Source of the DNA: Candidatus Parcubacteria bacterium
GTDB taxonomy: Bacteria; Patescibacteriota; Microgenomatia; UBA1406; GWC2-37-13
Direction of reading: 5' to 3'
Length of the DNA: 64,000 nucleotides
Assembly: GCA_039798745.1 (NCBI GenBank)
Contig: JBDKFK010000004.1
Coordinates: 21,178 to 85,177, forward strand
Of the stretch, positions 43,671-58,410 are shown in pieces. The notes under the pieces are model-generated. The model made no database searches and was not told where the DNA came from. It saw only the letters and a program-made list of their open reading frames with translations. The position numbers were made by a program, and so were the translations under genes. Numbering within the stretch: position 1 is the stretch's first letter; each line of letters opens with the position of its first letter.

Positions 43671-45869
43671 ATGTTTCTATCATCATTATTCTCGAAGTAT
43701 AAGAAAAGCAAAGAATATTATTTTGGACTCTTTCTCAAAGGCGACGAAGCAGTTGGTTTGGTATTTGAGGTATCCGAAAATAATCTTATAATTCTGGACA
43801 CCGAGCGATCTTCGTATTCGAACGGATGGGAAAATATTGTAGAAGATATAGACGATCTTATCTTCAAACTCGAAAGTAAGACAAAACAACATCTTAAGGA
43901 TGTTATTTTCTTTACCTACTCTTATTTCATAGACGAAAACTCTCATGAAATAAAGCAGCCCTACAAAGATATTATTAAGTCTCTTCTCAAAAAACTTGAG
44001 CTTAAACCGCTGGGTTATATTGAGTGTTTTGAGGCAGTAGCCTCATACCTGGGAAGAAGAGATAATATACCTCTCAATGCAATCCTTATAGAGCTTGATA
44101 AGCATAATGTAGATATCTGTATATACAAAAGCGGACGCAAAATATTTGCCAAAAATTCTTCGAGAACTAATAACCTCATAGAAGATATGACATCAATGTT
44201 TGATGTACTGAAAGGGCAGGTGTTGCCTTCACGTATTGTGTTGTACGACGCTGCCGATCTACACGATGAGTCAACCAAGATAATTGCGCATAAATGGGAC
44301 GAGGAAATTTTTGTGCAACCTCCCAGAGTGGAGGTTGTGAAAGAAGATAAACTGTATAAAGAACTAGGAGAAATTTTTGTGCAGCAGCTCTTCGCTGATA
44401 GTTCGGAGAGCAACATGCAGGATGTTACCACAGAACCCGCTGAAACTATCGCTGAAGATCCTGAATCTGAACCTGAGAACACTGTTCCTGCCAGCGAAGA
44501 AGAACCAGCAGAAACTACGGTTGTAGAAACACCTCATGTCGCGGGGGGAGTGATGGGATTTGTAATCGGTAAAGATATTAGTGCTTCCAAATCTGTACAA
44601 CCCAAACAGGCAGAGGTGTCGCAGGAATCATCGTTTGGTGCGGAGACAGATAGCGAGGAAGTTACAGGTATCTCACGTGCTCCCCGCAAGTCATTTATAT
44701 TTCCTACTATACGTATGCCACATATACAGATGAAAGGTTTTTTCAAATACGCGTGGATTGTCGGTATTATTATGATAGTCGCTTCCCTTTTTTCTATTGA
44801 GTACTATTTCCACAAAGCACACTTAACGGTACTTCTCCCTGCAAAATCACTCTCAAAAAAGATTGATATCAATACCACCATAGGATCTACTTCTTCCACG
44901 GGGCCAAATATATTAACGGGCACATATACCGCATCGGTAGATGACAGTTCATCAACTACCGGCAAAAGAGATTTGGGAGAGAAAGCGCGAGGTGATGTAA
45001 TGCTTCATAATTTTAGCGACTCTGACAAACTTATATCAAAAGGAACAGTGCTGGTAACAGAAGGGAAAAGTTTTGTGCTTGATCAGGATGTTAAAATTGC
45101 TTCAGCCAGCGAAAGTATTGTTGACGGTGGTCTGGTAAAACAGCCGGGTAAATCTAAAGGTACCGTGCTTGCCTCCACACTTGGTCCTGAAGGAAATATA
45201 GCAAAAAGTAAAAGGTTTGCTATCGGAGATTTGCCATCATCCACATATTTTGCCATTAATGAGAGCGCCTTCTCGGGCGGGACGCGTAAGTCAATAAAGA
45301 CTGTTTCGCGCGATGATATAGAGGGGCTAAAAAAGAGCGCACTTGAGAAAGCAAAAAAAGAAAACGGCGAGGAGATCAAAAAGAAACTGGGGAAAAATGA
45401 TGTGCTCATTGATGCGTTAACAGAAGCTGCTGTTTCTGATTCAACACTTTCAAAAGAACTCGGCGAAGAAGCTGATGAACTGACTATGCAGGCTAAGGTT
45501 GATCTGACCTACTATTATTTTGATGGCGATCAGTTAAAAAAAGAGCTGGCTGAGGACATGAAAGCCGAGGCTCCTTCTGACTTCCAGATAGTGACAGACA
45601 AGCTAACCTTTAGTTTTGACAATGTAAAGAAAGATGAGGATGATGTCTCAATGGTCGTAAATGCTCATACGGTATCTGTCAAAGAAGTATCTACCGAGGC
45701 AATTTTATCTAAGGTGATAGGTAAAAAGAAGTCAGATCTTGATTCGGTGTTAAGAAGCGAGAACGGAGTTTCAGGATATCATGTGGATATAAAATCTCCT
45801 ATTGTTGTATTGGATCAATGGATGCCGTTTTTCAAAAACAATATCAAGCTTGACACATCCACCCTGTAA
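43671..45869 (+). CDS. Large hypothetical membrane protein (possible actin-like/FtsA-PilM-like N-terminal domain)
   Basis: 732 aa. The N-terminal ~230 aa have a weak ASKHA-like pattern (AILIELDKHNVDICIYKSGR). An acidic linker and a central TM helix follow, then an extracytoplasmic domain. Confidence 0.4.
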   Translation: MFLSSLFSKYKKSKEYYFGLFLKGDEAVGLVFEVSENNLIILDTERSSYSNGWENIVEDIDDLIFKLESKTKQHLKDVIFFTYSYFIDENSHEIKQPYKDIIKSLLKKLELKPLGYIECFEAVASYLGRRDNIPLNAILIELDKHNVDICIYKSGRKIFAKNSSRTNNLIEDMTSMFDVLKGQVLPSRIVLYDAADLHDESTKIIAHKWDEEIFVQPPRVEVVKEDKLYKELGEIFVQQLFADSSESNMQDVTTEPAETIAEDPESEPENTVPASEEEPAETTVVETPHVAGGVMGFVIGKDISASKSVQPKQAEVSQESSFGAETDSEEVTGISRAPRKSFIFPTIRMPHIQMKGFFKYAWIVGIIMIVASLFSIEYYFHKAHLTVLLPAKSLSKKIDINTTIGSTSSTGPNILTGTYTASVDDSSSTTGKRDLGEKARGDVMLHNFSDSDKLISKGTVLVTEGKSFVLDQDVKIASASESIVDGGLVKQPGKSKGTVLASTLGPEGNIAKSKRFAIGDLPSSTYFAINESAFSGGTRKSIKTVSRDDIEGLKKSALEKAKKENGEEIKKKLGKNDVLIDALTEAAVSDSTLSKELGEEADELTMQAKVDLTYYYFDGDQLKKELAEDMKAEAPSDFQIVTDKLTFSFDNVKKDEDDVSMVVNAHTVSVKEVSTEAILSKVIGKKKSDLDSVLRSENGVSGYHVDIKSPIVVLDQWMPFFKNNIKLDTSTL

Positions 45870-45898: not shown

Positions 45899-46648
45899 AT
45901 GGCCCTCTATACATATTTAAAAGAACATAATACGCGTAAAAGACAGATGGTTCACATGATGTCTTATATCTCATTAATAATGGGCTCTCTTCTTCTGTTC
46001 TGGGCTTTCTATCCGATCATATCGTTTGAGGTGTACGCTCGGCTTTTTATCCAGCGGAATGTCGCCAGTCCCATACCGCATACCGAGATTGCGACTTCGC
46101 TCAAAGCGGCCGATTCGGTGTTGGGTAATTACGACGTCTATTCGTCAAACCTGCGCGATTTTGTACAGGCAAACCTATGGTTTCCAAGCAAACCGCAGAC
46201 GAAACCATCAGAAAAAATTGATGTAAAAGACTATTATATTTCGATCCCAAAGCTAAACATTTCCGCGGCGCATGTGGTAGTAGGTGGCACGGACCTCGCG
46301 TCCAGTCTCATTCACTACATACCTACCTCATTACCGGGTGAATACGGGAATGTTTCAATCTTCGGCCATTCGACACTTCCCCAACTATACAATCAGAAAG
46401 ACTATAAAACTATTTTTACGTACCTGCCATCGCTCGAAAAGGGTGATACAGTGATTGTGAAGATGGGCGAGCTTGAATATGAATATGAGGTGTACGATAT
46501 GTTCGTGGTAAAGCCTGACCATATCTCCGTACTTGAACAAAAATACGACGCTTCTTATCTTACACTCATAACATGCGTGCCTCCGGGTACATTCTGGAAC
46601 AGACTGGTAGTGCGCTCAAAACTTAAGAATCTTCCGAGTACTCCGTAA
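45899..46648 (+). CDS. Sortase family transpeptidase
   Basis: A TM anchor, the catalytic His context NVSIFGHST, Cys in LTLITCVPPG, and Arg in NRLVVRSK. Confidence 0.8.
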   Translation: MALYTYLKEHNTRKRQMVHMMSYISLIMGSLLLFWAFYPIISFEVYARLFIQRNVASPIPHTEIATSLKAADSVLGNYDVYSSNLRDFVQANLWFPSKPQTKPSEKIDVKDYYISIPKLNISAAHVVVGGTDLASSLIHYIPTSLPGEYGNVSIFGHSTLPQLYNQKDYKTIFTYLPSLEKGDTVIVKMGELEYEYEVYDMFVVKPDHISVLEQKYDASYLTLITCVPPGTFWNRLVVRSKLKNLPSTP

Positions 46649-49104: not shown

Positions 49105-49412
49105 TTATTTTTCTTACAAAGCACTTTCATATTTCTTACATAACTCTTATCACTGATTGAGAAAATGGTTAAATGATTGGTAATTACAACAAAAATATAG
49201 GATTAATAACTTTGTTATCAATACCATCTTTAAACGTAGATAAAAATACTTAACTCTTATTTTTCTGATATGTAAAACTGAAGATTTGAGTTAAGAGCAA
49301 CGTGCTAAAAATAACAAAGTGATAAAGAATATTACTCAACAAGTGTCCCATATTAATTGTGCTCATGCATCGTTAATAGGACAAAGCGTTCATTATAAGT
49401 TGTTCTGAAACT

Positions 49413-50708
49413 ATGATTAAACATTATTCACGTACTCTATTAACGACAGTATTGCTCTTAACTGCAGTTGCCTACCCATTTAGTTTCTATACTCCTGTAC
49501 TTGCAAATACTGCTACTCAAAATGCTCTAAGGTCATCAATAATGCAGGGAATACAGTCAGATATAAATGCGTCAAATAATACTACAAATATCATAAATTC
49601 AGGGGACAATACTGATATCGATACAAATGCAAACTCAAGCTCACAAACAACGGTACATAATCAAAATACAGCGCAAGTAAATCAGCAGATTGATGCTCAC
49701 GCAAATACAGGCAACAATGAAGCCAGCCGTAACATTAGCATCGGAGGTAATGCAGGGATTATTATGACAGGTAATGCTGCCGTTAACACTCAGCAAATAG
49801 TGAATGCGAACGATAATGTTACAGCCATCTCAGGAGGAGGTACGTACGGAAGTAATAATACAGATATTGTTAATACGGGAGACGGAGTAGACGCATCAAC
49901 TTCATCACAATCCAAACGCAGTACTCTGGTCAATAATGATAACACTCTCGTTGTCAACCAAACTGCAAACACATCCGCGAATACGGGGAATAATAGGGCT
50001 GATCGGAATATCAGCATAGGAGGAGTGTCAGGCGCAATCCTTACGGGTAACGCGTCTACTAACTCAAGCTTCTTACTCGCAGGCAATGGTTCAGTGGCGT
50101 TGGTGGGGGGAGTGGAGAACGGAAATGGTCCGGGCACCGGCGCTTCAATAATACTTACTAATACTGGTGATCGTGGTAGATTCGGATCACACAGTACACA
50201 TGCTAGCGCTCTTACTGTGAATAATACAAATAACGCGCAGGTATCTCAGTCCTGCGGGAGTTTATTTGGCTGCAGCGCGATTACAGGAGGAAATAGTTCA
50301 GATCGAGGAATAGCACAAGGCGGGAATGCCGGAGTAATTCAAACGTCCAATGCAGTAGTAAACGTAGTGCTCTATGCTCAAGCTAATACCAATAGAACAG
50401 CAGTTTCCGGTACAGGTAAGGGAACATCTTCTCAGAATAATACAAATGTCATGAATACAGGAGATGATGTAAGTATTCAAACAGGATCCAATGACAGCAA
50501 TACAACCCATGTAAATAACACAAATAACGCATTTATAGATCAGGCCATTAATGCTGTCGCGGATACAGGTAACAATCATGCAAATAGAAATATCAGTATA
50601 GGTGGTGACGCAGGTTTGATACGCACAGGAAATGCCGTGATAAACGCGATTACCGTAGCAGATGTAAACGGTAACGGTACCGAGATTGGGATTCCAACAG
50701 GTAACTAA
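49413..50708 (+). CDS. Secreted Asn/Thr/Gly-rich protein with four ~95-aa repeats (paralog 1)
   Basis: A signal peptide, then four units each holding N[ST]GD...V.N.N.A.V.Q...A.(A/I)(N/D/T)(T)G(N/G)N...RNISIGG.AG.I.TGNA..N. Examples: ANTGNNEASRNISIGGNAGIIMTGNAAVN, ANTGNNRADRNISIGGVSGAILTGNASTN and ADTGNNHANRNISIGGDAGLIRTGNAVIN. Confidence 0.6.
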   Translation: MIKHYSRTLLTTVLLLTAVAYPFSFYTPVLANTATQNALRSSIMQGIQSDINASNNTTNIINSGDNTDIDTNANSSSQTTVHNQNTAQVNQQIDAHANTGNNEASRNISIGGNAGIIMTGNAAVNTQQIVNANDNVTAISGGGTYGSNNTDIVNTGDGVDASTSSQSKRSTLVNNDNTLVVNQTANTSANTGNNRADRNISIGGVSGAILTGNASTNSSFLLAGNGSVALVGGVENGNGPGTGASIILTNTGDRGRFGSHSTHASALTVNNTNNAQVSQSCGSLFGCSAITGGNSSDRGIAQGGNAGVIQTSNAVVNVVLYAQANTNRTAVSGTGKGTSSQNNTNVMNTGDDVSIQTGSNDSNTTHVNNTNNAFIDQAINAVADTGNNHANRNISIGGDAGLIRTGNAVINAITVADVNGNGTEIGIPTGN

Positions 50709-50766
50709 ACCGTATTTATAGCGCATTTATTATTTATTAGTTCTCGATGGAAAGGGGGTGAATAGA

Positions 50767-51981
50767 ATGAGAATACTTAAAACAAACACGTTGGTTTCAT
50801 TGCTGACCGCGGCTTCAATCGCCGTTGCTCCTGGTTTAGCTTTTGCTGACAATGGTACTGCTGTGATCAACAGCGGTGACAATGCTTCAGTTACAAGCTC
50901 GACTAACCAGACATCACATGTTGCTGTTTCCAATAGTAACACCGCGTTTACAACCCAATCAGTCAATGCCGATGCTAATTCTGGTGGAAACACTGCAAAT
51001 AGTAACATTGGTTTGAATGGTGGAGGCGGGACTATCCTTACTGGAGCAGCCAATATCGGAGCGCAGATGGGAGTCAATGCAAACCACAATGTAACGAGTG
51101 TTAGCGGTGCTACTTCACCCGCAAGCTCAAACGTAACCGATGTAGTTAATACGGGTGACAACGCCCATGTTAACACTACGGCAAACACCTCGAATGTCGT
51201 ACAGGTTGACAACTCAAATGTTGCGGCTGTCGAACAGGCATTTAAGGCGAAAGCAAACTCCGGTTTGAACGTTGCCAATAAAAATATTGGCGGTGGAACA
51301 ATCGGAACTGGTGGTGCCAATATAGGCGCAACAATGGGTACAGATGTGAACCATAACACAACTTCTGTAGGAGGTTTTGGCGGTCTTTCGGGACTGTCAA
51401 ATGGTCTGGTGAATGGTACAAGTATCACCAATACTGGTGATCACTCAACCGTGCATTCATCAGCAAACTCTAACTCTACTGTTGGAGTTTCCAACTACAA
51501 TCATGCACTCGTTAATCAGGGTTTCTTTGGCGCTTCTAACACCGGTAAAAATGCAGCCAACTCTAATATCGGAGGCGGTTTGATTGGAACTGGTGCAGCC
51601 AATGTCGGTGCGACAATGGGCGTTTCTGCAAACTCAAACGTCACAGGTATCGACAGCAGTTGGTCTGGTGGATTAGGTACTTTGATGTCAGGCGATAACC
51701 TGCATGATATCATAAATACCGGAGATTCACTTGACTCAAATACATCGGTGAATAATACTTCATCAGTCGGTGTATCAAACTCACAGTTTTTGGCTTCCAC
51801 TCAGTATCAATGGTCGCATAGTAATAGCGGCTTAAACGATGCAGTTTCTAATATAGGAGGAACTGGAATCGGTACAAGTGTAGCCAATGCTGGTGGTACA
51901 TTCGGAATAGCAGGTAACACCAATCTTACAGGTATTGGTGGTTTCTTTGGTGATTTACTATCACTTATGGGAATGTTTTAA
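50767..51981 (+). CDS. Secreted Asn/Thr/Gly-rich protein with four repeats (paralog 2)
   Basis: A GGGGG-type SD precedes the ATG at 50767 and there is a signal peptide (...APGLAFA). The four units resemble INSGDNASV...ANSGGNTANSNIGLNGGGGTILTGAANIGAQMGVNANHNVTSV. Confidence 0.6.
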   Translation: MRILKTNTLVSLLTAASIAVAPGLAFADNGTAVINSGDNASVTSSTNQTSHVAVSNSNTAFTTQSVNADANSGGNTANSNIGLNGGGGTILTGAANIGAQMGVNANHNVTSVSGATSPASSNVTDVVNTGDNAHVNTTANTSNVVQVDNSNVAAVEQAFKAKANSGLNVANKNIGGGTIGTGGANIGATMGTDVNHNTTSVGGFGGLSGLSNGLVNGTSITNTGDHSTVHSSANSNSTVGVSNYNHALVNQGFFGASNTGKNAANSNIGGGLIGTGAANVGATMGVSANSNVTGIDSSWSGGLGTLMSGDNLHDIINTGDSLDSNTSVNNTSSVGVSNSQFLASTQYQWSHSNSGLNDAVSNIGGTGIGTSVANAGGTFGIAGNTNLTGIGGFFGDLLSLMGMF

Positions 51982-52011
51982 CGAATTATAGGGTTTAACA
52001 TATATGTTTGC

Positions 52012-52037
52012 CGCCCCGGGGATGCATACCCGGGGCG
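52012..52037 (+). terminator. GC-rich hairpin after paralog 2
   Basis: CGCCCCGGG, loop GATGCATA, CCCGGGGCG: a 9-bp perfect stem with no clear T-tract. Confidence 0.5.
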
Positions 52038-52105
52038 AGCCCTAGTAGCTAAGTTCAGAGCTTCGTGATATAATAATCCGCTTCATTATGAATTGATGGA
52101 ATAGC

Positions 52106-53938
52106 ATGATGTATAAACGAATTGTACTGGTCATGTTTTTACTGCTGCGCGTATATGTAAGTTCAATGTATGTGTTTGCTTATGCGGAAGATACCGTGAC
52201 TACCGAAGAGGCTACTCCTACTCCAGTTGCTATTATTGATTCCGAAGCACAAGAAGAGAATGTCCTACCTACCGAAGAAGAATCTAGTGCGGAACAAACA
52301 ACTGACGAGCCTTCTGAGAGTGTAACTAACAACAATAGTTCCGAGATCAATAATGAAACTGAGGCATCATCTACAACAGGCGATAATACTGATATTACTA
52401 CAATCGACGAAACAGTTATCGAAACGGGAACTGCTTCGGCCTCTGTTGATGTAGTTAATAATGTTAATGAAAACGTAACTGGTTCGGAAATCAGCGTTAG
52501 TGAGCATAATGTACTTGAAGATCATGAAGGGATAATAGATCTCACCCAACCGCCTGCTTCATGTAATGTATCAACAGATAGCGCAACGCTTCATAGCGAT
52601 GTTTCTCATACCAATAATGCTGTAATTACCAACGATATTACTGTAACAGCGAGCACTGGCAATAATAGTGCTAGTGCGACAGAGGCTGCCATTTTAACCG
52701 GAGATGCCGATATTGATATAGATGTTATCAATGTAGCTAACACAAACATTACGGGAGATTGCGCGCACTACGGCATAGTAAATATTATGAATGAGCAGAA
52801 GGGTGATATTATTTTGCCGTATGAAGGGGATATGGTGAATTCCCAAAGTTCCGCATCTTCCGAGGTCGTAAATGCAAACAACGTGGAGCTTGAGACAAAT
52901 ATTATGGCCAAAGCAGAGACCGGCGAAAACAGCGCACAGATTATACAGACTGGAGATAGTACCATTACCGTGCGACAGATAGATTCGGTGAATACTAATA
53001 TATCAGGAAATAACTGGATTATTGTACGGGTTAACGGAACAGATTTGTGGACGGGGGACTTTGTGGGATGGAAGGGCAATATTACGCGTGGTGATAATTA
53101 TGCCCTCGCCTGGACAGAGATACCATTTGAACAAGGCCAAGCATCGTCGTCAGTAACAAATACCAATACCAGTGCTGTTACAAACAATATTCGCGCAACA
53201 ACACATACAGGTAATAATGCGGCGACAGGAGCAAACTCTTCGGTGCGTACGGGTGACGCACATATAGATGTAGATATCCTTAATATACTTAATACCAATA
53301 TTACCGGCAGCTACTGGTATTACGAAATGATTAACATATTGGATACATTCGTTGGCAATATCGTTTTTCCCCGACCTGATCTACAGGTTTCTATTGGTTC
53401 CAACACGTTATCTGCGCATACGGGCGACGAAGCATCGTATACAGTTTCATACGCGGATAGCGGTACACTCTGGGCTGAGGAGGTAGTTGTAGAAGTACAG
53501 CTGCCGCCAAGTGCTGAGCTTCGCTCTATGTCATCGGGTGGAACGTTTTCGAATGGTGTTATACGCTGGAACCAAGGTTTATTAAAGGCCGGCGGAGGTG
53601 GCACAGTGTCATTTGTTATGAAACTCGAAGCCGGTTCGACAGATAACAGATGGAGAACGCAAGCAACAATACATTCGAATACTCAAGAACCGAACCAGAT
53701 TAATAATATGGCTGAAAGTTTCATTACAAACATCCTACCGACCTTACCATCAACTCAGACTCAGCCAGTAGTTATAGTTACCGTACAACCATCAGTAACA
53801 CCGTTTATAAACGCTCGGGTATCCAAAGCACAACAATCAGTGCTGGCAGCGAAAGATATCGCCTCAACAACAGATAAAAAGGGATCGTTAGTAGTACATA
53901 CCAAGATAAAACTACACAGCGCAGTCGCGCGCAATTAG
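52106..53938 (+). CDS. Secreted repeat protein (paralog 3) with a C-terminal DUF11-like domain
   Basis: It has a signal/anchor and an acidic linker. Repeats carry (A/T)xTG(N/E)N(S/A)A....TGDA.IDIDV.N..NTNITG. The C-terminal ASYTVSYADSGTLWAEEVVVEVQLPPSAEL...VIRWNQGLLKAGGGGTVSFVMKLE resembles the DUF11 repeat. Confidence 0.55.
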   Translation: MMYKRIVLVMFLLLRVYVSSMYVFAYAEDTVTTEEATPTPVAIIDSEAQEENVLPTEEESSAEQTTDEPSESVTNNNSSEINNETEASSTTGDNTDITTIDETVIETGTASASVDVVNNVNENVTGSEISVSEHNVLEDHEGIIDLTQPPASCNVSTDSATLHSDVSHTNNAVITNDITVTASTGNNSASATEAAILTGDADIDIDVINVANTNITGDCAHYGIVNIMNEQKGDIILPYEGDMVNSQSSASSEVVNANNVELETNIMAKAETGENSAQIIQTGDSTITVRQIDSVNTNISGNNWIIVRVNGTDLWTGDFVGWKGNITRGDNYALAWTEIPFEQGQASSSVTNTNTSAVTNNIRATTHTGNNAATGANSSVRTGDAHIDVDILNILNTNITGSYWYYEMINILDTFVGNIVFPRPDLQVSIGSNTLSAHTGDEASYTVSYADSGTLWAEEVVVEVQLPPSAELRSMSSGGTFSNGVIRWNQGLLKAGGGGTVSFVMKLEAGSTDNRWRTQATIHSNTQEPNQINNMAESFITNILPTLPSTQTQPVVIVTVQPSVTPFINARVSKAQQSVLAAKDIASTTDKKGSLVVHTKIKLHSAVARN

Positions 53939-54003
53939 CAGGATTAGTAGTGAGTCTTGCGGGTTTTATGTTTATTATCTATAAACTCAGAAAAGGAGTT
54001 GAA

Positions 54004-54432
54004 TTACCTTTCATCAAATAGTTTACTGAATAAATTTTTCAGAAATGATTGTACGCTTTCAGCTATTCCCGAACCCATTTTTTCAGTATCGTCAGAAGGT
54101 AATGGCACAGCAGTGGGTGATGGTTTTAACGTCGGAGTAGGCGACATACTCTGAGTGGTAGACTCAATAACTTTTTTTTCACCGTTCACGGTAACTTCTG
54201 TTTTCTTTTGGATTGTAGTAGTACTCGTGCTGCTGCTCTCTACACGATTCTGCATAGTTACACTTGCTTCGGAACCGTCGGATGATTCGACATGCGTTTC
54301 AACGGTGCTATGTACCTGGCCGTTGTTGATTGATACGTTTGAGTTTGTATTAACGTAGGCATTTCCCGTATTTATAACGAGAAGTGTGACCGGCATGACC
54401 ACAAAACTAGCGAATAGTTTATTCACATGCAT
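54004..54432 (-). CDS. Hypothetical secreted Ser/Thr-rich protein
   Basis: 142 aa with an N-terminal hydrophobic signal (FASFVVMPVTLLVINTGNA). Confidence 0.4.
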   Translation of the reverse strand: MHVNKLFASFVVMPVTLLVINTGNAYVNTNSNVSINNGQVHSTVETHVESSDGSEASVTMQNRVESSSTSTTTIQKKTEVTVNGEKKVIESTTQSMSPTPTLKPSPTAVPLPSDDTEKMGSGIAESVQSFLKNLFSKLFDER

Positions 54433-57855: not shown

Positions 57856-58410
57856 ATGAAGCGCAAAATTATGAGTATGATCGCGGCAGTCGCGATACTG
57901 GCAGGTTCCACTGGCGCTGTTTATGCGTACTTTAGCACGACACTTACCAGTGTTAACAACGTTTTTGCTTCGGGCAAGATGGAAATGCAGCTGTCTAAAG
58001 ATAATACTACGTTTACCGAAACGGTATCTGCCGCATTTGGAGGAACGGGCCTGATGCCGGGAACGTGTCTACAGCCCGGGACCTTGTATATTAAAAATAC
58101 AGGAACGGTGAACGGTAATCATATCGATCTAACGGCCAACAATACCAATGTGTCGCTAGCATCGTACCTTAAGCTGGATACGATTACGTACGATGGCATA
58201 GGGGTTACGGTGACTGACGCAAATAGTAATGGATTTGTTGACCTTGATGACCTCAAAACATCGGGCGCTCACAATCTGGCACTGACAGATAAAAATATAG
58301 CTCATCCGCTCGTGATGAAGCTCTGCCTCGATAGTTCCGCGACCAATGCACAGCAGGAACAGACCAATACTATGGAGCTCAGTGTAGTGTTGGATCAGGG
58401 ACCTCATTAA
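57856..58410 (+). CDS. TasA/camelysin-like secreted protein with a SipW-class signal peptide
   Basis: MKRKIMSMIAAVAILAGSTGAVYAYFSTTLTSVNNVFASGKMEM matches the G(T)xAYFSD...N.F.(S/T)G pattern of the TasA/CalY family. LMPGTC...YIKNTGTVN matches the family's PGD...N.G strand. Confidence 0.6.
   Translation: MKRKIMSMIAAVAILAGSTGAVYAYFSTTLTSVNNVFASGKMEMQLSKDNTTFTETVSAAFGGTGLMPGTCLQPGTLYIKNTGTVNGNHIDLTANNTNVSLASYLKLDTITYDGIGVTVTDANSNGFVDLDDLKTSGAHNLALTDKNIAHPLVMKLCLDSSATNAQQEQTNTMELSVVLDQGPH

What the first reader, a model, noticed from the sequence alone, without database searches (positions are those of the whole stretch)
49413..53938. Three adjacent paralogous secreted proteins built from ~95-aa Asn/Thr/Gly-rich repeats with a conserved xTG(N/G)NxA...TG(N/D)A core
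ORFs 49413-50708, 50767-51981 and 52106-53938 all start with signal peptides and share a repeat architecture. Each unit has an N(T/S)GD(N/D) strand, then a V.N.N.A.V.Q strand, then A(N/D)TG(N/G)N.A.RNI(S)IGG..G.I.TG.A..N, then VNAN.NVT..SG. Paralogs 1 and 2 each contain four units. Paralog 3 has longer units (ASTGNNSASATEAAILTGDADIDIDVINVANTNITGD, AETGENSAQIIQTGDSTITVRQIDSVNTNISGNN, THTGNNAATGANSSVRTGDAHIDVDILNILNTNITGS) and ends in a DUF11-like domain. The repeats have almost no charged or large hydrophobic residues, which suggests a beta-solenoid or fibre-forming surface polymer. A 308-bp AT-rich region (49105-49412) precedes the locus, and a GC hairpin (52012-52037) follows paralog 2. I cannot place the repeat in a named family from memory.
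Basis: seen in the sequence. Interest (0 to 1): 0.6.

Follow-up and report, generated by a model that had tools for sequence, protein, structure and literature searches.

The report
Uncatalogued CPR surface-protein hairpin-repeat cassette
Three neighbouring genes of an ultra-small (CPR/Patescibacteria) bacterium encode secreted proteins built from a long beta-hairpin repeat found in no domain or structure database, which belongs to a family of thousands of proteins that probably form part of these poorly understood bacteria's cell surface.

Summary
Three adjacent + strand ORFs (49413-50708, 50767-51981, 52106-53938) encode signal-peptide proteins built from a shared Asn/Thr/Gly-rich unit of about 85-98 aa. 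P1 and P2 each have four units. P3 also has four, not three, followed by a DUF11 domain (now called CLIPPER).

No Pfam, NCBIfam, PDB-sequence or Foldseek match covers the unit. It is not disordered. AlphaFold2 gives confident all-beta models, with unit cores at pLDDT 85-98 and a pTM of 0.74 for P3. Independent coevolution analysis recovers one long antiparallel ladder per unit.

P1/P2-type and P3-type units are homologous (hhalign 96%, E 3.7e-9). A profile of the unit finds 2,155 protein clusters, and every named one is from CPR bacteria.

The P1-P2-P3 gene order recurs in several Microgenomates lineages. Many P1 homologues add a Pro/Thr stalk and an LPxTG sortase signal, and some P3 homologues end in a membrane helix. 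The three proteins in this window have no such anchor.

The most likely reading is a lineage-specific cell-surface coat or adhesin cassette. Whether the hairpins stack like solenoid rungs or polymerise into fibres is unresolved.

The parts
49105..49412 (.). 308-bp AT-rich spacer upstream of P1. It is the presumed promoter/leader region, but no element was identified in it.
   Evidence: Sequence read. GC is 0.32. It is 93.5% identical to the close relative L018. There is no Rfam match at E<=1 and no + strand sigma-70-like site in the consensus scan.
49413..50708 (+). P1, 431 aa. Signal peptide, then a low-confidence N-terminal segment (aa ~33-56), then four hairpin units (aa 57-148, 149-244, 245-342, 343-431; nt 49581-49856, 49857-50144, 50145-50438, 50439-50705). 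It has no C-terminal anchor and ends ...EIGIPTGN.
   Evidence: AF2 mean pLDDT is 72.4, pTM 0.61, unit cores 85-98. There is no Pfam, NCBIfam or PDB hit. 95 homologues were found, none with a Pfam domain and all named ones 'hypothetical'. dN/dS against L018 is 0.22.
50767..51981 (+). P2, 404 aa (407 from GTG 50758). Signal peptide, then four hairpin units starting straight after the cleavage site (aa 30-122, 123-216, 217-311, 312-404). A conserved hydrophobic/aromatic C-terminal tail (...GFFGDLLSLMGMF) spans nt ~51937-51978.
   Evidence: Orthologues in L005-L008, L019 and L020 carry equivalent tails...IMDMLFFWLS...MWDSFMSMFN...GLDVLAFLLGS...FSDVLALWLLGSM. The 3' half differs by 16-18% at nucleotide level from L018. 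dN/dS is 0.20.
52012..52037 (+). GC hairpin between P2 and P3. The 9-bp stem is 52012-52020 / 52029-52037 and the 8-nt loop is 52021-52028. No T-tract follows.
   Evidence: It is conserved in L018, and only one similar hairpin exists elsewhere in the genome.
52066..52074 (+). Extended -10-like element TGATATAAT, 32 bp upstream of the P3 start. It may be a separate promoter for P3.
   Evidence: Read directly from the sequence and conserved in L018. This is an inference only; the consensus scan, which requires a -35 hexamer, did not list it.
52106..53938 (+). P3, 610 aa. In order:
- signal peptide
- acidic low-confidence linker (aa ~28-66)
- four P3-type hairpin units, each with a Trp/Phe-rich extra mini-hairpin (aa 67-150, 159-243, 245-340, 341-424; nt 52304-53377)
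- CLIPPER/DUF11 Ig-like domain (aa 425-537; nt 53378-53716)
- disordered basic tail (aa 551-610)
   Evidence: Pfam PF01345 at E 6.9e-11. AF2 mean pLDDT is 82.6, pTM 0.74, and above 90 across most of aa 70-545. Foldseek hits cover only the Ig-like C-terminal domain, including 9IFR at TMt 0.75. 120 homologues were found across Patescibacteria. The position aligned to the isopeptide lysine is Ile (plus the sequence).
53938..53960 (+). Terminator-like hairpin (8 pairs) followed by GGGTTTTATG, at the end of P3.
   Evidence: Consensus scan only.
45899..46648 (+). Sortase gene two genes upstream. This is context only, and it probably serves other substrates.
   Evidence: Pfam Sortase at E 1.4e-24. 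It falls below every NCBIfam class cutoff. None of P1-P3 has a sorting signal. The genome's candidate substrates lie elsewhere: C9 with IPKTG+TM and C15 with LASTG+TM. A sortase is directly adjacent to the cassette in L019 but absent next to L005-L008.

Best explanation
P1, P2 and P3 are the products of a conserved three-gene cassette, specific to Patescibacteria, that encodes cell-surface proteins.

Shown:
- All three proteins are built from one uncatalogued module.
- The core of the module is a single long antiparallel beta-hairpin or arch. A first strand V-x-N-x-N-x-A-x-V-x-Q leads to a tip that carries the A-x-TG-x-N-x-A and I-x-TG-(N/D)-A motifs, and a return strand ends in N-x-N-x-T.
- The module folds with high predicted confidence, and coevolution supports the fold.
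- Four modules per protein are predicted to pack into one rigid body.
- The gene order P1-P2-P3 recurs in several Microgenomates lineages.
- In relatives, P1-type proteins often carry a Pro/Thr stalk plus an LPxTG sortase signal. P3-type proteins carry a CLIPPER stalk domain and often a membrane helix or a peptidoglycan-binding domain.

Inferred:
- After Sec export the three proteins stay on the monoderm cell envelope as a coat or adhesin set.
- P3 acts as the base, through its CLIPPER stalk and basic tail.
- The anchorless P1 and P2 are held non-covalently. They would pair the exposed beta-edges of their homologous modules, and possibly use P2's conserved hydrophobic tail, with P3 or with each other.
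- Their fast protein evolution fits exposure to hosts, phages or the environment.
For: ORFs and signal peptides are confirmed. The unit repeats four times in each protein.

The two unit types are homologous. hhalign gives 96% probability and E 3.7e-9 over 56 columns, and the unit HMM scores far above shuffled controls.

AF2 models are all-beta. P1 unit cores reach pLDDT 85-98 with pTM 0.61. P3 has mean pLDDT 82.6 and pTM 0.74. These pTM values are too high for independent beads on a string.

Mean-field DCA on 384 P1-type units gives an antiparallel ladder with i+j of about 106-109. DCA on 260 P3-type units gives the same topology with i+j of about 66-70.

At least 40 of 90 P1-family proteins end in LPxTG plus a hydrophobic stretch plus a basic tail.

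P3 has a CLIPPER domain (fold match to 9IFR). CLIPPER is a stalk domain of fibrillar adhesins (PMC12617251). P3 homologues carry fn3, PG_binding_1 and CARDB domains.

The same gene order occurs in L006, L007, L008, L018, L019 and L020.

The module profile finds 2,155 clusters, and every named one is CPR.

Against a close relative, dN is 0.035-0.060 for P1 and P2 compared with 0.002-0.011 for neighbouring genes. dN/dS is about 0.2, so selection is still purifying.
Against: In this genome none of the three proteins has a covalent or membrane anchor, and no long anchored paralogue exists elsewhere in the genome. Retention on the cell is therefore assumed, and they could simply be released.

The proposed hetero-association is pure inference, and no multimer prediction was possible.

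The distribution is patchy. It occurs in 4 of 25 genomes of the window's own family, 0 of 2 in the same genus, and 14 of 301 in a phylum sample at E<=1e-5. It is therefore an accessory feature, not a core envelope component.

Sortase adjacency is inconsistent between loci.
Confidence: 0.58

Rival explanations
1. The modules form an open-ended cross-beta polymer, like a functional amyloid. Each ~60-95-residue module would be one giant rung (a beta-arch) that stacks in register on the next. The exposed top and bottom edges would let P1, P2 and P3 subunits add end-on into a fibre or sheath. Anchored paralogues (LPxTG long forms, P3) would act as the cell-bound template. The logic matches chaplins (long anchored plus short secreted forms) and curli CsgB/CsgA.
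For: - The same residues are invariant across all 12 units (V25, N27, N29, G44, N46, I61, T63, A66, N77, N79), as expected for Asn/Thr ladders.
- A-to-C strand couplings use only one face of strand A.
- AF2 strand A is a continuous 31-residue strand while its hairpin partner covers only about 16-18 residues, so it needs another partner.
- pTM values imply that the units pack together.
- Adjacent-unit DCA is enriched for in-register couplings: 21-22 of the top 30, against 8 and 14 for units two and three apart.
- The only Foldseek hits for P1 are FapC amyloid structures.
- P2 starts its first unit right after the signal peptide, with no cap.
- Long anchored and short free paralogues coexist in the family.
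Against: - The FapC hits are not significant (E>4, TM<=0.14).
- Most of the in-register coupling persists between non-adjacent units (positions 27, 50, 79), so it largely reflects subfamily differences rather than contact. The comparison is also confounded by different alignment depths.
- There is no Curlin_rpt, chaplin or Fap Pfam match, and no nucleator or secretion accessory genes lie nearby.
- AF2 models a closed monomer.
- No coordinates were available to check the direction of hydrogen bonding.
Confidence: 0.2
2. The three proteins are independent, non-interacting binding proteins, for example adhesins for host glycans or other surfaces. They are neighbours only because of tandem duplication. 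The flat Asn/Thr-rich sheets would be the ligand-binding faces.
For: The outward faces are polar and variable, and protein evolution is fast. P3-type proteins look like fibrillar adhesins with a head-like body on a CLIPPER stalk. CPR bacteria are commonly epibionts that need host-attachment proteins (PMC11623550 and PMC8080830, seen).
Against: The strict P1-P2-P3 order is kept across lineages whose proteins are only 33-50% identical. This points to functional coupling rather than recent duplication. P2's conserved C-terminal tail and lack of any anchor suggest a docking partner. No ligand-binding domain is recognisable.
Confidence: 0.12
3. The proteins are subunits of a sortase-polymerised, Gram-positive-type pilus assembled by the nearby sortase.
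For: A sortase lies two genes upstream, and its best but sub-threshold NCBIfam match is class C. A sortase is directly adjacent in L019. Long P1 homologues carry LPxTG.
Against: P1, P2 and P3 here have no sorting signal. P1 and P2 contain almost no lysine (0.7% and 1.2%) and no recognisable pilin motif. They lack the CnaA/CnaB Ig-like pilin folds. No sortase flanks the cassette in L005-L008. In L019 the sortase has its own small FAGTG substrate.
Confidence: 0.04
4. The proteins are Pam-type CPR pili (PamA/PamB-like donor-strand-exchange pilins), or simply low-complexity, disordered or mucin-like glycoproteins with no defined fold.
For: Pam pilins are CPR-specific and are reported in Microgenomatia (PMC13278184). 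The composition is strongly biased toward N/T/S/G and is rich in N-x-S/T.
Against: Pam pilins are two-domain Ig-like proteins with paired cysteines and PapD-like chaperones in the operon. P1 and P2 have no Ig-like domain, zero to two cysteines, and no chaperone-like neighbours. Disorder is contradicted by AF2 confidence and by the coevolution ladders.
Confidence: 0.03

Closest known systems
Fibrillar adhesins with CLIPPER (DUF11, PF01345) stalks, e.g. Acinetobacter silvestris B9T28_05395 (PDB 9IFR; PMC12617251)
   Same: P3 is secreted and carries a genuine CLIPPER domain. It passes the Pfam threshold and Foldseek matches 9IFR at TMt 0.75. The domain sits between an N-terminal body and a C-terminal tail. 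Homologues add fn3, CLIPPER_2, CARDB and PG-binding domains or membrane anchors.
   Different: P3 has only one CLIPPER copy, and the position aligned to the isopeptide lysine is Ile. The 350-residue N-terminal body is built from the uncatalogued hairpin module and matches no adhesin head. P1 and P2 have no CLIPPER domain at all.
Chaplins of Streptomyces (long ChpA-C anchored by sortase, short ChpD-H secreted), and curli CsgA/CsgB or Fap FapC/FapB functional amyloids
   Same: The family logic is shared. Paralogues built on one repeat occur as long wall-anchored forms (LPxTG) and short free forms encoded side by side. The repeats are Asn/Gln/Gly/Ala-rich strand-turn-strand units with a G-x-N-x-A-like motif. 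FapC was the only, non-significant, fold hit.
   Different: There is no sequence or profile match (Pfam gives nothing at E<=1). The units are 3-4 times longer, at 85-98 aa compared with about 20-40. No nucleator or secretion genes are nearby. Amyloid or polymer behaviour is untested. CPR cells are monoderm with a different envelope.
Pam pili of CPR bacteria (PamA/PamB; bioRxiv 10.64898/2026.03.03.709456, PMC13278184)
   Same: Both are CPR-specific, Sec-secreted, abundant-type surface structural proteins encoded by paralogous neighbouring genes, and both are reported in Microgenomatia.
   Different: Pam pilins are two-domain Ig-like proteins assembled by donor-strand exchange with membrane-anchored PapD-like chaperones. 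The proteins here are tandem long-hairpin repeats with no Ig-like pilin domain and no chaperone genes.
LPxTG sortase-anchored Gram-positive surface repeat proteins (e.g. SasG/Aap rod-like G5-E repeats)
   Same: Long P1 homologues have the classic layout: signal peptide, tandem beta-rich repeats, Pro/Thr stalk, LPxTG, hydrophobic helix and basic tail.
   Different: The repeat fold has no match to G5/E or to any other solved repeat (Foldseek found none). The copies in this window lack the anchor.

Membership tests
CLIPPER / DUF11 (PF01345) | Sequence match to the Pfam model above the gathering score | tested here: met
   P3 aa 425-537 scores 42.9 bits against a cutoff of 24.6, E 6.9e-11. P1 and P2 have no match.
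CLIPPER / DUF11 (PF01345) | CnaA-like Ig beta-sandwich fold | tested here: met
   The Foldseek search with the P3 model hits 9IFR at E 3e-6, TMt 0.75, 125 columns. It also hits CARDB 3IDU at TMt 0.75.
CLIPPER / DUF11 (PF01345) | Intramolecular isopeptide bond (Lys in the first strand, Asn, catalytic Asp). This is present in many members but not all. | tested here: not met
   The family profile aligns its consensus 'PDlwvgKs' to 'VDVVK' of 9IFR. The window's P3 reads PDLQVSIG, with Ile at that position. The paper notes that isopeptide-less members exist, so this does not exclude membership.
Sortase substrates (LPxTG cell-wall sorting signal) | C-terminal LPxTG-like motif, then a hydrophobic helix, then a basic tail | tested here: not met
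   The window's P1, P2 and P3 lack it. At least 40 of 90 P1-family homologues have it, as LPATG, LPTTG, LPMTG and others.
Curli (Curlin_rpt PF07012) / Fap / chaplin (PF03777) functional amyloids | Profile match to the repeat, and dedicated nucleator/secretion genes in the operon | tested here: not met
   Pfam finds no family at E<=1 for P1 or P2. FapC structures match only at E>4. The neighbours are a PBP1A, a sortase and aromatic amino-acid genes.
Beta-solenoid (generic architecture) | Successive repeats stacked in register by parallel inter-repeat hydrogen bonding | tested here: inconclusive
   Adjacent-unit DCA is enriched for i-to-i couplings (21-22 of the top 30). Much of that signal persists for units two or three apart, where 8 and 14 of the top 30 are in register and positions 27, 50 and 79 stay strong. 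pTM 0.61-0.74 implies packed units.
Pam pili (PamA/PamB) | Two-domain Ig-like pilin with a donor strand, and PapD-like chaperones in the operon | tested here: not met
   The P1 model is four repeated hairpin units with no Ig-like domain. No chaperone-like Pfam family occurs in the neighbouring genes. Direct comparison with the PamA/PamB sequences was not possible.
Sortase-dependent pilins | Pilin-motif lysine, CnaA/CnaB folds, LPxTG, and an adjacent class C sortase | tested here: not met
   P1 and P2 have 0.7% and 1.2% Lys, no LPxTG and no Ig-like fold. The sortase scores 65 bits against a class C cutoff of 160.
S-layer proteins | Very high expression, a lattice-forming protein, and known anchoring domains (e.g. 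SLH) | not testable with these tools
   No SLH or other anchoring domain was found by Pfam.

The most novel reading that the evidence does not exclude
The hairpin module is the building block of a surface polymer specific to Patescibacteria that has not been described before. Each 60-95-residue module would be one giant Asn-laddered cross-beta rung. P1, P2 and P3 would co-stack end-on into a fibre, sheath or S-layer-like film. That polymer would be tethered, depending on lineage, by an LPxTG-anchored long form, a membrane helix, or the CLIPPER-bearing P3. This would be a new class of functional-amyloid-like envelope structure in monoderm ultra-small bacteria.
Probability: 0.2. Interest if true: 0.8.

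Novelty: new variant of a known kind. Interest (0 to 1): 0.52.

Why it matters
CPR/Patescibacteria make up a large share of bacterial diversity and live mostly as epibionts. Apart from type IV pili and the recently described Pam pili, the proteins that form their cell surface are almost unknown.

This module defines a family of more than 2,000 protein clusters that has no Pfam model and no structural relative. It sits in a conserved three-gene cassette with recognisable anchoring variants. It is therefore a concrete, testable candidate for a major envelope or host-contact structure.

The module is also a clean target for a new domain-family definition and for structure determination. Its long Asn-laddered hairpin geometry could be of interest as a protein-material scaffold.

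Tried and rejected
1. Named-family assignment. Pfam and NCBIfam at E<=1 gave nothing for P1 or P2 and only DUF11 for P3. Ten further module-bearing proteins gave no Pfam hit on the module.

2. Solved-structure relatives. PDB sequence search gave nothing. The family profile reached only the CLIPPER domain. Foldseek against the PDB and BFVD gave nothing for the repeat body.

3. Sortase-substrate idea for this locus. I rejected it because none of the three proteins has a sorting signal, and the genome's few candidate substrates lie elsewhere.

4. An anchored long paralogue elsewhere in the genome. None was found.

5. Pam-pilus identity. I rejected it on architecture.

6. RNA element in the 308-bp spacer or elsewhere in the locus. 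There is no Rfam match at E<=1.

7. The GC hairpin as a repeated mobile element. Only one other similar hairpin exists in the genome.

8. Named taxonomic distribution through the search for related loci.

10. Stacked versus side-by-side hairpins, tested with adjacent-unit DCA and n+2 / n+3 controls. The result was inconclusive.

Full report
**Observation**

The three + strand ORFs are present exactly as described: P1 at 49413-50708 (431 aa), P2 at 50767-51981 (404 aa, or 407 aa from GTG 50758) and P3 at 52106-53938 (610 aa). Each N-terminus reads as a classical Sec signal peptide on inspection. No signal-peptide predictor was available.

Motif scans and an alignment of the excised units confirm four units of about 92-98 aa in P1 (starting at aa 57, 149, 245, 343) and four in P2 (aa 30, 123, 217, 312). 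Pairwise unit identity is 26-53%.

Composition is as described for P1 and P2 but not for P3, which is fairly acidic.

The DUF11 domain (aa 425-537), the 308-bp AT-rich spacer and the GC hairpin at 52012-52037 are all real. The hairpin has no T-tract. An extended -10-like TGATATAAT lies at 52066-52074, just ahead of P3. Both elements are conserved in a close relative.

**Is the repeat more than biased composition?**

Yes. An HMM built from the P1/P2 units scores the P3 repeat region at 35.6 bits. One thousand shuffles of that region average -26.2 bits (sd 4.3) and peak at -10.3.

A profile-profile comparison of 403 P1-family units against 294 P3-family units gives 96% probability and E 3.7e-9 over a 56-column core. 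Across all 12 units in the window, V25, G44, N46, T63 and N77 are invariant, and N27, N29, I61, A66 and N79 are nearly so.

**Known families**

Pfam and NCBIfam find nothing for P1 or P2 even at E<=1, and only DUF11 for P3. Ten other proteins carrying the module have no Pfam hit on it either. PDB sequence searches are empty.

PF01345 has been renamed CLIPPER. It is a CnaA-like Ig stalk domain of fibrillar adhesins that often carries an isopeptide bond (PMC12617251). In the window's P3 the position aligned to the isopeptide lysine is Ile (plus the sequence), so this copy is probably an isopeptide-less variant.

**Structure**

AlphaFold2 with family alignments gives all-beta models.
- P1: mean pLDDT 72.4, pTM 0.61, unit cores at 85-98, and inter-unit linkers below 50.
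- P3: mean pLDDT 82.6, pTM 0.74, and above 90 across most of aa 70-545.

Each unit has one long strand of 21-31 residues, a tip bearing the TGxNxA...TG(N/D)A motifs, and a return strand.

Foldseek finds no significant PDB match for the repeat body.
- For P1 there are only two FapC amyloid entries, at E>4.
- For P3 all 78 significant hits are alignments of about 125-145 columns to Ig-like domains. These include CLIPPER 9IFR and CARDB 3IDU, both at TMt 0.75, so they match the C-terminal domain only.
- BFVD also gives nothing.

I could not access model coordinates, so I tested the topology independently with mean-field DCA.
- 384 P1-type units give a clear antiparallel ladder: 37-72, 29-79, 31-75, 33-76, 41-68, 44-63, 46-61 and 48-59, with i+j of about 106-109.
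- 260 P3-type units give the same ladder (i+j of about 66-70), plus a second short hairpin in their Trp/Phe-rich extension.

The module is therefore a genuinely folded long hairpin or arch. This removes the 'disordered low complexity' alternative.

**Stacked or side by side?**

Evidence that favours in-register stacking:
- The couplings use only one face of strand A.
- The ladder-type residues are invariant in every unit.
- pTM is too high for independent beads.
- In P1, strand A is longer than its hairpin partner.
- DCA on concatenated adjacent units puts 21-22 of the top 30 inter-unit couplings in register, against a 5% background.

The control weakens this. Units two and three apart keep much of the same signal: 8 and 14 of the top 30 are in register, and positions 27, 50 and 79 remain strong. 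A large part is therefore subfamily signal, and the alignment depths also differ. I treat the solenoid question as open, leaning slightly toward stacking.

**Family and context**

P1 has 95 homologues in the word-indexed search. All are unannotated, and the named ones are Roizmanbacteria or Microgenomates. P3 has 120 homologues across Patescibacteria, including Giovannonibacteria, Taylorbacteria, Nomurabacteria and Paceibacterota. These carry DUF11, fn3, PG_binding_1, CARDB and DUF7507 domains.

An exhaustive profile search with the 12-unit alignment finds 2,155 clusters at E<=1e-3, 1,078 at E<=1e-10 and 176 at E<=1e-30.

Among 90 P1-family proteins, the unit counts and anchors fall into two groups.
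- 41 are four-unit proteins without an anchor, like P1 and P2 here.
- At least 40 have (mostly) five or six units, a Pro/Thr stalk, and an LPxTG motif followed by a hydrophobic helix and a basic tail.

Gene order is conserved.
- A long LPxTG P1-type, a three-unit P2-type and a CLIPPER P3-type occur together in L006, L007 and L008. In L005 an IS1595 transposase interrupts the third gene.
- A short P1-type, a four-unit P2-type and a P3-type occur together in L018, L019 and L020.

P2 orthologues always end in a short hydrophobic/aromatic tail. Some P3 orthologues end in a membrane helix.

A sortase is two genes upstream here and directly adjacent in L019, where it has its own small FAGTG substrate. 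It is absent next to L005-L008. In the window's genome none of P1-P3 has a sorting signal, and there are no further paralogues.

The distribution is patchy: 4 of 25 genomes of the window's own family, 0 of 2 in the same genus (those two are 83-87% complete), 4 of 16 in the rest of the order, and all 3 genomes of a family in another class.

**Evolution**

The comparison is with a close relative that has identical gene order (L018).

| Gene(s) | dN | dN/dS |
|---|---|---|
| P1 | 0.035 | 0.22 |
| P2 | 0.060 | 0.20 |
| P3 | 0.015 | 0.58 (few changes) |
| sortase, PBP1A, upstream 732-aa gene | 0.002-0.011 | 0.01-0.07 |

The repeat proteins change 3 to 30 times faster at the protein level than their neighbours but remain under purifying selection. 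Substitutions avoid the invariant motif positions.

Divergence stops abruptly at about window position 52570, inside P3. Downstream of that point the two genomes are essentially identical.

**Interpretation**

The best-supported reading is a Patescibacteria-specific cell-surface cassette. It encodes three Sec-exported proteins built from an uncatalogued long-hairpin module, each packing four modules into a rigid beta body. Lineage-specific anchoring comes through LPxTG/sortase, a membrane helix, or CLIPPER and PG-binding domains.

For this genome I infer that P3 is the base and that the anchorless P1 and P2 associate with it non-covalently.

The main rival is more novel: the modules are giant cross-beta rungs that polymerise end-on, following chaplin- or curli-like logic. 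Independent adhesins, sortase pili, Pam pili and disorder are less likely or excluded.

I found no publication describing the module.

Earlier unchecked AI notes from this scan describe what appears to be the same family in other CPR genomes. They disagree with each other on hairpin versus solenoid. They are not independent evidence.

**Limits**

- I had no model coordinates and no multimer prediction.
- Organism names are available for only a minority of hits.

Noticed in passing
window ~52570 (inside P3); comparison with L018: There is a sharp divergence boundary. To the left, the window and the close relative L018 differ by about 4-18% per 250 bp, and dS is 0.16-0.30 in the sortase, PBP1A, P1 and P2 genes. 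To the right of about 52570 they are essentially identical: one mismatch up to 54500, and dS of 0 in the 142-aa ORF, tyrA, pheA and the DAHP synthase gene. This looks like a recent recombination or sweep breakpoint inside a surface-protein gene.
   Followed up: partly
window 51250-51999 (P2 units 2-4): This is the most divergent stretch of the locus against L018, with 29-46 mismatches per 250 bp. The first 500 bp of P2 are far more conserved, at 5-7 mismatches per 250 bp. The variation is localised within one gene.
   Followed up: partly
window 54004-54432 (- strand): A 142-aa ORF runs convergent with P3. It has an N-terminal hydrophobic segment, a Ser/Thr-rich body and a stretch INTGNAYVNTNSNVSI that resembles the module's return strand. 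The unit HMM does not detect it, and Pfam gives only noise. It is 100% identical in L018.
   Followed up: partly
L005 11140-12525 (CP065004.1, Ca. Roizmanbacteria) compared with L006: In the complete Roizmanbacteria genome the P3-type gene is cut to 239 aa by an IS1595-family transposase. A near-identical metagenome contig (L006) has the intact 569-aa gene. The cassette can evidently lose its third member.
   Followed up: partly
L019 5791-6903: A 186-aa secreted protein ends in FAGTG plus a transmembrane helix and a basic tail. A 181-aa sortase follows it, and both sit directly upstream of a short-P1/P2/P3 trio. This looks like a separate sortase-substrate pair travelling with the cassette.
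   Followed up: no
window 43671-45869 (+): A 732-aa protein with no Pfam family on record lies immediately upstream of the sortase. It is conserved in L018 at 97.7% amino-acid identity with dN/dS of 0.07. Its function is unknown.
   Followed up: no
window 57856-58410 (+): The protein has a weak Peptidase_M73/camelysin match and a SipW-type signal-peptide match, both just below their thresholds. It belongs to the TasA-like operon already noted by another first-stage finding, and so marks a second, unrelated candidate surface-fibre system in the same window.
   Followed up: no
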